59,966 bases of DNA from the IMG/VR virus record IMGVR_UViG_3300020476_000002, positions 1-59,966 of that record; one strand, written 5' to 3'. Positions 26,123 through 29,380 of this stretch are shown piece after piece (the first letter of the stretch is position 1; each line of letters opens with the position of its first letter). Made by a program: the position numbers and the translations under genes. The notes under the pieces were generated by a model. That model had not been told where the DNA came from. It did no database searches and saw nothing but the letters and a program-made list of their open reading frames with translations. The DNA is from a virus (taxonomy: Duplodnaviria > Caudoviricetes).

Positions 26123-26338
26123 TTATTTATTTCTTGCTTGAAGTATTTGCTCCCGAGTAAATGCATCATGTTCCACCATTGGAGTATCACGCTTTGTTCC
26201 TCTCTTATTTTTTGTTGCCTTATCTTCTTTCCTGAAAACACGCCAAGCTTCACGGCAACCAGCGCACCGGCACCCATTGCTATAAAAATTTGCTGACGGT
26301 TTCCCTTTACAAGAAGCTCTTTGATTAGCCAAAGTCAC
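26123..26338 (-). CDS. Y..GCRCxxC zinc-binding protein
   Basis: FYSNGCRCAGCREAW motif, a type common in actinophages. Confidence 0.65.
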   Translation of the reverse strand: MTLANQRASCKGKPSANFYSNGCRCAGCREAWRVFRKEDKATKNKRGTKRDTPMVEHDAFTREQILQARNK

Positions 26339-27850: not shown

Positions 27851-27950
27851 TACTTTCCCTTTCAATTTGAGATCTTCAGGAGAGGGGATGGTGCCCCATA
27901 TCTGAGACAATCCTTATCCCCTCTCCCTTTCTTGCGACCTTTCAGGAAAT

Positions 27951-27959
27951 ATTATACCA
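27951..27959 (-). promoter_or_regulatory. extended -10 promoter TGGTATAAT
   Basis: Consensus TGn-TATAAT, followed by an 11-bp-stem hairpin (27879..27926). Confidence 0.55.
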
Positions 27960-27963
27960 GCAA

Positions 27964-27994
27964 TAAATACCAAACCCCTTCGGGCTTGTATTTA
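27964..27994 (-). terminator. hairpin downstream of the pentamer array
   Basis: AAATAC-AAGCCC-GAAG-GGGTTT-G-GTATTT followed by ATTG. Confidence 0.5.
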
Positions 27995-28029: not shown

Positions 28030-28235
28030 GTCACCATAACAGGCTGACCTTGGCCCTGAGCACCAATACGATACGTTGCTGCCTAGACTTTCCGGTGCTG
28101 CCACTGAGTGACACTCCCCACCACGCCCAAGCTGGGCATTCCGCGACACTCCCCACCTTTCCGGTGCTGCCATGACGCTGCCTACCGCAGGAGACCCTAG
28201 CTTTCCGCACTATGCCCAAGCCCGCCCTTCCGTGT
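28030..28235 (-). ncRNA. phased GGH-NN pentamer array, candidate guide-RNA array
   Basis: 32 of 36 in-register pentamers start with G, 19 with GG, and none has G at position 3. A 16-nt direct repeat TGGCAGCACCGGAAAG recurs at 69-nt spacing. Confidence 0.7.
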
Positions 28236-28243
28236 CCTATATT

Positions 28244-28687
28244 TTATAACTCGTCTATAGCTAGACGCACATTCTCAAACTCATCGAATGCGGTTACTCG
28301 ATCACTCAAATTACGGAACCGAGTCTTATACATTGCAACAACCTGAGCACGCTGATCCGTGTCATTCATTGCAACCTCGACAGATACATACCCTTTTTCT
28401 TTTACGGGCTGCACCATCGCAGGAATTTTTACTTTCTTTATCCCATTACTAGGATGATCGTAAGTAACAGTAATTTTATAGTTAGCAATCAACGCACGAG
28501 CTTGCTGCAACCTGTACTTATCTGCTGCTGATGTATTATCCCAATCAAAATGCTTATGTAACACATGCTTAGGATCACGAGCAACTTCAACCACTGTCTC
28601 TGGTTGAACCGTCCCATACGTTGATTCAATATCTTCTAAAGCTATAAGAGTTTCAGAAGGATTCGTTTTAACTATCGAATGTTCCAT
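28244..28687 (-). CDS. partner of the Cas7-like gene, unknown function
   Basis: LHKHFDWDNTSAADKYRLQQARALI motif. Starts 1 nt after the RAMP-like stop. Confidence 0.7.
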   Translation of the reverse strand: MEHSIVKTNPSETLIALEDIESTYGTVQPETVVEVARDPKHVLHKHFDWDNTSAADKYRLQQARALIANYKITVTYDHPSNGIKKVKIPAMVQPVKEKGYVSVEVAMNDTDQRAQVVAMYKTRFRNLSDRVTAFDEFENVRLAIDEL

Positions 28688-29380
28688 TTATATTTCCTCA
28701 TATTTCGCTGGATCTAATGTGAATTGACCATACATACCAGTGTTCGACTGCGGTGAAGCTGGCCTCCATTCACCAACACCTCCCATACCTGCTGCTTCAA
28801 CAAGAGTATGGATACCTTCGAAATCAATTTGTGTAGGAATATATCTGACAGTCAATGTCGCTGACCATTCAGGATATGTAGCTCTCCATCGCAGATCAGC
28901 AGTTCCTTGCCCAACCCGAACAACATCTTCTCTACTTTCAGGCACCCCAATGATAGGTACAAGCTGATTCTGACCGAAGCCTTCAACGTAAAGCGCCGTT
29001 CTTAAACCGACCAACGTCACTTCCTTACCAAACAAACGGGAAGCACCAACAATCGCAGCCTTGAATCCAACAGCAGGGAAACCATCAGTTACCCCACTGG
29101 CCTTCTGAATATCGTCATCCAAAATATATCGAGAATCATTAAACGATTTCTCTGGATTACGAGGTGGTTTCTTTGTCTTAACACCCGGTGTTGTCATTAA
29201 CGCAGCCTTATTAGCAAACCGATTAACAATCAAAGGCGTAACACCTTTAATATAAATATCAACCGACGCCCGAGTAATCTTTTTCAAGCTCATCGCAGGC
29301 AATTCATGCTCAATAACAACTGGCTCAGGTTGTTTCACCTCAACTATTTTTTTCGTTGAAGTTGCTTTCTTTGTAGCCAT
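28688..29380 (-). CDS. solo Cas7/RAMP-like protein
   Basis: IKGVTPLIV first strand, FPAVGFKAAI helix, C-terminal Gly loop GMGGVGEWRP..GMYGQF; AGGAG RBS. Confidence 0.7.
   Translation of the reverse strand: MATKKATSTKKIVEVKQPEPVVIEHELPAMSLKKITRASVDIYIKGVTPLIVNRFANKAALMTTPGVKTKKPPRNPEKSFNDSRYILDDDIQKASGVTDGFPAVGFKAAIVGASRLFGKEVTLVGLRTALYVEGFGQNQLVPIIGVPESREDVVRVGQGTADLRWRATYPEWSATLTVRYIPTQIDFEGIHTLVEAAGMGGVGEWRPASPQSNTGMYGQFTLDPAKYEEI

What the first reader, a model, noticed from the sequence alone, without database searches (positions are those of the whole stretch)
28030..28235. Fine structure of the array: two 13-pentamer units with a constant GGCAG-CACC-GGAAA junction
The minus strand parses as ACAC | GGAAG GGCGG GCTTG GGCAT AGTGC GGAAA GCTAG GGTCT CCTGC GGTAG GCAGC GTCAT GGCAG | CACC | GGAAA GGTGG GGAGT GTCGC GGAAT GCCCA GCTTG GGCGT GGTGG GGAGT GTCAC TCAGT GGCAG | CACC | GGAAA GTCTA GGCAG | CAAC | GTATC GTATT GGTGC TCAGG GCCAA GGTCA GCCTG. 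Hand count: position 1 is G in 32/36, GG starts 19/36, position 3 is never G, and positions 4-5 vary. The phase breaks only at 4-nt linkers after GGCAG, giving a 69-nt unit (repeats at 28157..28172 and 28088..28103). An internal 13-mer recurs 35 nt apart, in phase. Inference: the junction is a processing or handle motif that releases individual guide RNAs, and unit 3 is a collapsed remnant.
Basis: seen in the sequence. Interest (0 to 1): 0.85.

Follow-up and report, generated by a model that had tools for sequence, protein, structure and literature searches.

The report
Staggered VIPR guide-RNA array in marine phage
This stretch is the guide-RNA array of a phage VIPR system, a CRISPR-like RNA-guided DNA silencer first described in 2026, and its constant junction is the boundary between neighbouring guides, so it is a real but already known kind of element.

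Summary
The minus strand 28235..28040 parses exactly as written: G at position 1 in 32 of 36 pentamers and never G at position 3. No dinucleotide shuffle comes close (32 conforming pentamers against 19.0±1.7; 0 of 2000 shuffles reach it).

The tract follows a two-gene cassette. The 230-aa protein is a Vipr-type RAMP: its family profile matches the solved SUSP1 Vipr protein (E 3.2e-8) and its fold resembles Csm3/Cas7. The same pentamer arrays lie beside its homologues in 67-80 of 80-84 related viral loci, always on the gene's strand.

This is a VIPR system (bioRxiv 10.64898/2026.04.26.720920). The "4-nt linker after GGCAG" is what that paper calls a staggered array, with a 1-nt overlap between neighbouring vrRNAs. 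This scan has found VIPR arrays before on other genomes.

- Thirteen pentamers is not a fixed unit; relatives have 9-17.
- The stretch after the last junction is a fourth, decaying guide with orthologues in three relatives.
- The motif here is relaxed (G-N-H-N-N), and there is no 3' tail.

Processing at the junction is inferred, not shown. No target was found. Verdict: new member of a known kind.

The parts
28688..29380 (-). vipr gene: 230-aa Vipr-type RAMP protein (phrog_4652, no Pfam or NCBIfam family)
   Evidence: The profile of 37 homologues matches PDB 36pp_D 'SUSP1 Vipr protein' at E 3.2e-8, over the thumb Arg and the G-loop. The AF2 model has pLDDT 87.2. Foldseek's best matches are Csm3 and type VII Cas7, with 35 chains at E<=0.001. 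There are 830 homologues and none carries a Pfam domain. Family scans.
28244..28687 (-). vap-like accessory gene: 147 aa, phrog_15946, class not assignable
   Evidence: A homologue sits next to vipr in 68 ORFs from 84 related loci (jackhmmer) and in 28 phage records. The model has pLDDT 88.3. No fold match reaches E<=0.001; the best is a winged-helix WH1 domain at E 0.11.
28232..28243 (-). Leader directly after the vap stop codon, ending in a degenerate junction-like motif before the first guide
   Evidence: Read from the sequence. It is conserved in L084, L086 and L087. In more distant relatives a full GGCAG plus 4 nt precedes the first guide.
28167..28231 (-). Guide 1: 13 pentamers ending in GGCAG
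   Evidence: It is orthologous to the first unit of L084, with all 26 of 26 NN bases identical and the 5 differences all at pentamer positions 1-3.
28163..28166 (-). 4-nt G-free linker (CACC); equivalently a 1-nt overlap between guides
28098..28162 (-). Guide 2: 13 pentamers ending in GGCAG, with an in-phase internal 13-mer repeat
   Evidence: It is orthologous to unit 3 of L086 (23 of 26 NN bases identical) and to unit 3 of L084.
28094..28097 (-). 4-nt linker (CACC)
28079..28093 (-). Mini-unit of 3 pentamers: a first pentamer plus the two terminal handle pentamers
   Evidence: It is absent at the orthologous place in L084. Mini-units recur family-wide and in L027.
28075..28078 (-). 4-nt linker (CAAC)
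28031..28074 (-). Guide 4, decaying: six in-phase pentamers, then a 1-nt deletion and a mutated terminal handle
   Evidence: It is orthologous to L086 unit 4, L084 unit 4 and L087 unit 5 (83% identity over the 6 pentamers). In contigs of three other runs, base 28033 differs and brings the last pentamer closer to GGCAG.
27961..27988 (-). Terminator-like hairpin with a T-rich tail that closes the cassette
   Evidence: The hairpin is conserved with some covariation in L084, L086 and L087.

Best explanation
The tract is the vrRNA (guide RNA) array of a phage VIPR system of the staggered, tail-less kind. It is most likely transcribed with vipr and vap from the minus strand and ends at the terminator near 27988.

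The array holds two intact guides of 13 pentamers, one 3-pentamer mini-unit and one decaying 9-pentamer guide. Vipr protomers are expected to bind one pentamer each. They would hold the constant bases (here G, mostly G, then non-G) and expose the two variable bases, which read double-stranded DNA with one skipped base per repeat.

Every guide ends in a constant ...T-GGCAG. The next guide starts one base out of phase: four G-free bases, or equivalently a shared G. I infer that this one-base-short step stops the Vipr filament from continuing in register. Each unit would then be loaded as its own ribonucleoprotein, and the exposed junction would be where the transcript is cut or trimmed.

Shown here: the periodicity, the junction, its conservation across relatives, and the homology of the protein. 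Taken from the papers: filament binding and the 1-nt skip rule, shown for the SUSP1 system. Inferred: transcription, cleavage at the junction, and the filament-stop mechanism.
For: Periodicity and parse:
- The parse and the permutation tests hold.
- It is the only such tract in the window when scored with a matrix built from relatives alone.

Protein:
- The family profile hits SUSP1 Vipr at E 3.2e-8. Window R166 aligns to the thumb R138, and window E204-W205-R206 align to D177-W178-R179, the residues the structure paper says hold G1 and G2.
- The fold is RAMP-like.

Association with the gene:
- 124 arrays were found in 67 of 80 viral loci, all on the vipr strand and none on the other.
- A relaxed detector finds an array in 80 of 84 loci.
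- Arrays lie downstream of vap, upstream of vipr, or between the two genes.

Junction:
- GGCAG-to-GGCAG distances are 4 modulo 5 in 5 of 5 cases in L086 and 5 of 6 in L087.
- Family-wide, 269 of 341 4-nt steps read GGCAGG[CT], and 175 of 241 step-to-step distances are 4 modulo 5, with peaks at 54-74 nt.
- The linker has no G at any of 80 positions across 20 junctions.
- The same layout appears at about 40% Vipr identity.

Variable positions:
- Information per pentamer position is 1.37, 0.39, 0.34, 0.23 and 0.01 bits over 241 pentamers.
- Orthologous guides keep their NN bases: 26 of 26 and 23 of 26 identical.

Other:
- Contigs of three other runs show no difference anywhere in 28040..28235.
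- The literature describes VIPR, 9-16 repeats per vrRNA, staggered arrays with 1-nt overlap, and alternative consensus motifs.
Against: - No RNA data exist for this locus, so transcription, guide ends and processing are all unobserved.
- The published paper did not confirm staggered arrays by sRNA-seq.
- The constant motif is weak here. G at position 2 occurs in only 20 of 36 pentamers and A at position 3 in 12 of 36. In SUSP1 the Y3 pocket is reported to exclude purines. The residue aligned to the G1-contacting His is Asn in this protein.
- No target was found under the 1-nt skip rule in the window or in the 1.34 Mb of fetched loci (counting both strands). The best match was 19-20 of 26, against a null maximum of 20.
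- The excess of substitutions at positions 1-3 between orthologous guides is only marginal: 75 against 35, p 0.048, with non-independent pairs. One pair goes the other way.
- The single-sequence match to SUSP1 Vipr is weak (E 0.12). Only the family profile is significant.
Confidence: 0.8

Rival explanations
1. The array is one long scaffold RNA that is not cut into guides. The one-base-short junctions would be hinges or register resets inside a single long Vipr filament or chain of filaments.
For: No processing data exist for staggered arrays. There is no hairpin, ribozyme or Rfam family at the junctions. The tract as a whole is not more structured than shuffles (z -1.3).
Against: Unit sizes of 9-17 pentamers match the published 9-16 repeats of single vrRNAs. 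The legend of fig. S18 speaks of boundaries of individual processed vrRNAs. Units are gained, lost and reordered independently between close relatives.
Confidence: 0.1
2. The array is a decaying relic that no longer works. The weak GGY motif, the mini-unit and the broken fourth guide would be signs of erosion.
For: Only 19 of 36 pentamers start with GG, and A sits at position 3 in 12 of 36. Guide 4 has a 1-nt deletion and a mutated handle. No target was found.
Against: The same relaxed motif, with an intact GGCAG junction, is shared by relatives down to about 40% Vipr identity, so it is a property of the clade and not local decay. vipr and vap are intact. Guides 1 and 2 keep their NN strings across relatives. 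The array is unchanged in contigs of three other runs.
Confidence: 0.07
3. The tract is not a guide RNA. It would be a small protein-coding ORF, a double-stranded DNA protein-binding site or a G-quadruplex-forming element.
For: ORFs of 56 and 62 aa overlap it. In Mycobacterium phage Pippy the equivalent array is annotated as a hypothetical protein. The strand is G-rich.
Against: No reading frame is open in all four close relatives. Units differ by 5n+4 nt, not by multiples of 3. The period is 5, not 3. All 124 arrays share the strand of vipr, which a symmetric DNA site would not require. The avoidance of G at position 3 and the free positions 4-5 fit Vipr binding and not a quadruplex.
Confidence: 0.03

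Closest known systems
VIPR staggered vrRNA arrays (bioRxiv 10.64898/2026.04.26.720920, main text and legend of fig. S18; the figure itself was not seen)
   Same: A Vipr RAMP gene and an accessory gene lie next to intergenic arrays of 5-nt repeats in a phage. Neighbouring guides abut with a 1-nt overlap, so the end of one marks the start of the next. That is exactly the 5n+4 spacing seen here.
   Different: I could not see which VIPR type or which organisms the figure shows. Here the constant trinucleotide is relaxed to G-N-H. A constant T-GGCAG terminal pentamer and a G-free 4-nt linker are defined. Mini-units occur.
Type II VIPR of Escherichia phage SUSP1 and a Pseudomonas fulva prophage (same paper; structures in 10.64898/2026.04.26.720927; PDB 36pp)
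   Same: The proteins are homologous, sharing the thumb Arg and the (D/E)-W-R G-loop. Both have pentamer guides of 9-16 repeats and a two-gene locus.
   Different: SUSP1 vrRNAs each carry a conserved 3' tail of about 40 nt with a pseudoknot and have strict GGY. Here only 4 nt separate the guides, there is no tail, and A is allowed at position 3. Protein similarity is confined to about 50 residues at the sequence level.
Non-canonical VIPR repeat motifs (NNNGG, YNNNG, NNNNG in 10.64898/2026.04.26.720920; WGT/NN, TGH/NN in 10.64898/2026.10.21.760802)
   Same: The constant trinucleotide is degenerate while the 5-nt period and a Vipr-like neighbour are kept.
   Different: The motif here (G 0.90, G 0.56, non-G 0.98) is not one of those named in the passages I read. 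I could not compare it with their supplementary logos.
Class 1 CRISPR crRNA with a Cas7 backbone
   Same: A RAMP protein polymerises along a guide RNA with periodic base flipping. Constant handles flank variable guide segments. There are n+1 junction motifs for n guides.
   Different: The period is 5 nt, not 6. Pairing is non-contiguous. There is no repeat-spacer array, no cas1, cas2 or cas6, and the system is phage-encoded. It is not a member of this family.

Membership tests
VIPR system | A Vipr protein: a minimal RAMP with an RRM core, G-loop and thumb, homologous to described Viprs | tested here: met
   The profile of 37 homologues hits PDB 36pp_D 'SUSP1 Vipr protein' at E 3.2e-8. The single sequence hits the same region at E 0.12. 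Foldseek finds Csm3 and type VII Cas7, with 35 chains at E<=0.001.
VIPR system | A tandem 5-nt repeat tract (GGY/NN or a related consensus, at least 4 units) in the intergenic DNA flanking vipr, on the same strand | tested here: met
   36 pentamers directly after vap on the gene strand. 0 of 2000 shuffles reach the observed parse. The consensus is relaxed to G-N-H-N-N.
VIPR system | Constant positions conserved and NN positions hypervariable across guides | tested here: met
   Information per position is 1.37, 0.39, 0.34, 0.23 and 0.01 bits over 241 pentamers in 4 genomes. Positions 2 and 3 are much weaker than in canonical GGY.
VIPR system | A minimal locus with a vipr-accessory (vap) gene, carried by a virus | tested here: met
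   A homologue of the 147-aa gene sits beside vipr in 68 ORFs from 84 loci. The window is a whole virus record. The vap class (vap1-6) could not be assigned.
VIPR system | vrRNAs are expressed and bound by Vipr | not testable with these tools
   No listed run holding the stretch is on record as RNA. This needs sRNA-seq and a pull-down.
VIPR system | Guides match DNA targets under the 1-nt skip rule | tested here: inconclusive
   Only the window and the fetched loci (1.34 Mb counting both strands) were scanned. The best match was 19-20 of 26 NN bases, within the null (maximum 20 in 40 shuffles). Public collections were not searched.
VIPR staggered array | Adjacent vrRNAs overlap by 1 nt, so unit-to-unit spacing is 5n+4 | tested here: met
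   The window has spacings of 69 and 19 nt. L086 meets it in 5 of 5 cases and L087 in 5 of 6. Family-wide, 175 of 241 distances meet it.
Type II VIPR (SUSP1 clade) | Each vrRNA ends in a conserved 3' tail of about 40 nt with a pseudoknot | tested here: not met
   Guides are separated by 4 nt only. The conserved element downstream is a terminator module, which in L084 and L087 lies beyond an inserted gene.
CRISPR-Cas | A repeat-spacer array with long direct repeats, plus adaptation and processing cas genes | tested here: not met
   There are no such repeats in the region. The neighbouring genes have no Cas families. The period is 5 nt.

The most novel reading that the evidence does not exclude
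In this marine clade Vipr may recognise little more than a G at position 1 and a non-G at position 3. The arrays would dispense with any tail or ribozyme. The one-base-short GGCAG junction would itself be both the filament stop and the cut site, so that guide boundaries are set by phase alone. The mini-units would be scars of recombination between junctions, which would be the way guides are lost and shuffled, much as CRISPR spacers are lost between repeats.
Probability: 0.3. Interest if true: 0.55.

Novelty: new member of a known kind. Interest (0 to 1): 0.35.

Why it matters
VIPR is a very recent class of RNA-guided DNA recognition, and only the tailed type II form has been dissected. This locus adds a marine-phage example of the staggered, tail-less architecture, which the describing paper did not confirm by RNA sequencing.

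The comparison with relatives gives a concrete and testable definition of the guide boundary: a constant T-GGCAG, four G-free bases, and 5n+4 spacing. It also shows that the constant trinucleotide can be much looser than GGY. Both points are useful for annotating such arrays and for designing minimal multi-guide constructs.

None of this changes the known principle.

Tried and rejected
- **tRNA/tmRNA scan and Rfam:** nothing at gathering score. One meaningless lncRNA hit at E 0.74 in the permissive scan.
- **Folding:** the MFE of the tract is not unusual on either strand (z -1.3 and -0.6), so a compact structured RNA was dropped.
- **DNA similarity:** blastn of the intergenic region against phages found no match. 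A single-protein scan of viral contigs with the 147-aa protein found no relative.
- **Fourier power:** a plain period-5 power of G with 65-75-nt windows did not single out the tract. Only a 100-nt window did, because G occupies several phases. I replaced it with autocorrelation, a dynamic-programming parse and a relatives-only matrix.
- **ORFs:** the ORFs overlapping the tract were rejected as genes.
- **Target search:** the 1-nt skip rule gave nothing above the null in the window and fetched loci. I did not search public collections, because that would have meant typing a pattern joined from the guides' dinucleotides.
- **RNA evidence:** no RNA holder listed.
- **Laid contigs:** contigs of four DNA runs showed no array polymorphism. 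The assembly break of X9 inside the array is not interpretable.
- **vap fold search:** no significant match.
- **His/Asn trend:** the trend against motif looseness is not controlled for relatedness, so I do not use it as evidence.
- **Supplements:** figures and supplementary files of the papers were not available, so I could not assign the VIPR type (I-VII) or the vap class.

Full report
**1. The observation**

All the hand counts hold: G at position 1 in 32 of 36 pentamers, GG start in 19 of 36, and no G at position 3. The 16-nt junction repeat (spacing 69) and the 13-mer repeat (spacing 35) are both exact.

The 5-nt period is not a composition effect:
- G autocorrelation peaks at lags 5 and 10. 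It is reached by 2 and 3 of 2000 dinucleotide shuffles.
The observed value is 32 (0 of 2000).
- A pentamer matrix built only from three relatives scores this tract 31.3 bits. Nothing else in the window, on either strand, scores above 12.0.

**2. Surroundings**

The window is a whole 59,966-bp virus record. The tract fills most of a 333-nt gap that follows two abutting minus-strand genes: a 230-aa gene (28688..29380) and a 147-aa gene (28244..28687). A terminator-like hairpin lies at 27988..27971.

The tract is a GC-rich island, 60-65% against about 42% around it. It contains no tRNA and no Rfam family. It is not more structured than shuffles.

**3. Relatives**

The two genes travel together in 27 Mycobacterium phage records and in Gordonia phages. 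In Gordonia phage ODay the gap between them is a striking run of NNGGC pentamers. In Mycobacterium phage Pippy the same kind of run lies just upstream, partly under an annotated hypothetical protein.

The 230-aa protein has 830 homologues and none carries a Pfam domain. I fetched 80 viral loci with a profile of 37 of them.
- A simple detector found 124 arrays in 67 of these loci. All are on the strand of the gene and none on the other.
- A relaxed detector finds an array in 80 of 84 loci.
- Arrays lie downstream of the 147-aa gene (61), upstream of the 230-aa gene (33), between the two (9), or elsewhere downstream (21).
- A homologue of the 147-aa gene is adjacent in 68 ORFs from 84 loci.

**4. 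What it is**

The AF2 model of the 230-aa protein (pLDDT 87.2) resembles Csm3 and type VII Cas7 backbone subunits. The family profile matches the solved 'SUSP1 Vipr protein' (PDB 36pp) at E 3.2e-8. The match aligns the window's R166 and E204-W205-R206 with R138 and D177-W178-R179. The structure paper says these residues hold the two guanines of each repeat.

- 10.64898/2026.04.26.720920 (Results, the type-classification method, and legends found by search) describes phage-borne Vipr proteins, a vap gene, and vrRNAs of 9-16 GGY/NN pentamers that read DNA with one skipped base per repeat. [quoted passage not shown]
- 10.64898/2026.04.26.720927 (sections 5 and 6) shows one protomer per repeat in a helical filament.
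- 10.64898/2026.10.15.759431 (abstract and passages) and 10.64898/2026.10.21.760802 (passages) add solo vrRNAs and non-canonical motifs.

The locus meets every defining feature I could test. It does not have the tail of about 40 nt that type II vrRNAs carry.

**5. Fine structure**

Four close relatives came from one metagenome scan. Three of them include the array. They show the same design with different guide sets: units of 9-15 pentamers, each ending in GGCAG, then four bases, then a pentamer that mostly begins GGA.

Across 20 junctions:
- The four linker bases never include G (0 of 80 positions).
- T precedes GGCAG in 16 of 20.

GGCAG-to-GGCAG distances are 4 modulo 5 in 5 of 5 cases (L086) and 5 of 6 (L087). 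Relatives at about 40% protein identity keep GGCAG plus four bases around guides of 9-17 pentamers. They also have a GGCAG before the first guide, so n guides are flanked by n+1 junctions.

In the canonical GGC family:
- 341 four-nt steps were found, and 269 read GGCAGG[CT].
- Shifts of -1 (gaps of 4 or 9 nt: 498) far outnumber shifts of +1 (gaps of 6 or 11 nt: 118).
- 175 of 241 step-to-step distances are 4 modulo 5, with peaks at 54, 59, 64, 69 and 74 nt.

The last G of GGCAG doubles as position 1 of the next pentamer.

**6. Corrections to the parse**

Thirteen pentamers is not a constant. The seven pentamers after the last linker are the start of a fourth guide (28074..28031), orthologous to a 9- to 11-pentamer guide in L086, L084 and L087. 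In the window it carries a 1-nt deletion and a mutated terminal pentamer. Contigs of three other runs differ at 28033, which brings that pentamer closer to GGCAG.

The 3-pentamer unit is a first pentamer plus the two handle pentamers. L084 lacks it at the same place. Such mini-units account for 36 of 241 distances family-wide, and L027 has a one-pentamer example. A collapsed guide is a fair reading.

**7. Which positions vary**

It is not. Over 241 pentamers in four genomes, position 1 is G in 90%, position 2 is G in 56%, position 3 is G in 2% (A in 26%), and position 5 is uniform.

Orthologous guides tend to keep their NN bases. Guide 1 and its L084 orthologue share 26 of 26 NN bases, while all 5 differences fall at positions 1-3. 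Guide 2 and L086 unit 3 share 23 of 26. Over all 13 orthologous pairs the excess at positions 1-3 is marginal (75 against 35; p 0.048; the pairs are not independent), and one pair runs the other way.

**8. Mechanism**

- Shown here: the architecture, its conservation, and the homology of the protein.
- Taken from the papers, for SUSP1: filament binding, exposure of the NN bases, and 1-nt-skip DNA recognition leading to silencing.
- Inferred: the cassette is one transcript ending at the terminator, the one-base-short step prevents a filament from running on in register, and the exposed G-free linker is where the RNA is cut or trimmed.

**9. Against and limits**

- There is no RNA evidence.
- The paper states that only the hammerhead and single-vrRNA layouts were confirmed by sRNA-seq.
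- The constant motif is loose, with A at position 3 in 12 of 36 pentamers, although the SUSP1 pocket is said to exclude purines.
- No target was found in the little DNA I could scan.
- The VIPR type and vap class could not be assigned without the supplements. The 147-aa protein has no significant fold match.

**10. Verdict**

This is a genuine and well-observed vrRNA array of a staggered VIPR system: a new member of a kind described in 2026, found by this scan before on other genomes. Its modest added value is a sharp comparative definition of the guide boundary and an example of a relaxed, tail-less clade in marine phages.

Noticed in passing
Unrelated places in the window score the same or higher (10.1 and 12.0). 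By this measure it is not distinguishable from noise.
   Followed up: partly
window 27905-27976: Many short contigs from other runs pile up on these roughly 70 nt just upstream of the next gene, and then run on into unlike sequence. Depth rises to about 155 in X13. This looks like a promoter or leader module shared among different phages.
   Followed up: no
L002 1997-2240 (Mycobacterium phage Pippy) and L003 2770-2982 (Gordonia phage ODay): Cultured actinophages carry long canonical NNGGC arrays next to the vipr/vap pair. In Pippy the array lies largely under an annotated 'hypothetical protein' (gene 47), which is probably a spurious ORF call.
   Followed up: partly
L004-L087, residue aligned to N53 of the window's 230-aa protein: Loci whose Vipr has His at the position aligned to the G1-contacting His of SUSP1 have more canonical arrays (G at position 2 in 9.0 of 12 pentamers; 55 loci). 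Loci with Asn there have looser arrays (6.4 of 12; 16 loci). This is not controlled for relatedness.
   Followed up: partly
L084 2740-2935 and L087 1150-1340: In two close relatives a small gene is inserted between the array and the terminator module. By eye its product resembles the Cys-rich 71-aa ORF at window 26123..26338. The module has apparently moved between positions.
   Followed up: no
window 28092-28128: The two contigs of run X9 stop inside guide 2, at 28092 and 28128, although both are otherwise identical to the window. This is an assembly break of unknown cause.
   Followed up: no
L018 5337-5394, L037 5416-5473, L027 1455-1512: The last unit of these three arrays is nearly identical between them. 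It is the only one joined by a 3-nt linker rather than 4 nt (spacing 58). It may be a conserved terminal guide or a cap element.
   Followed up: no
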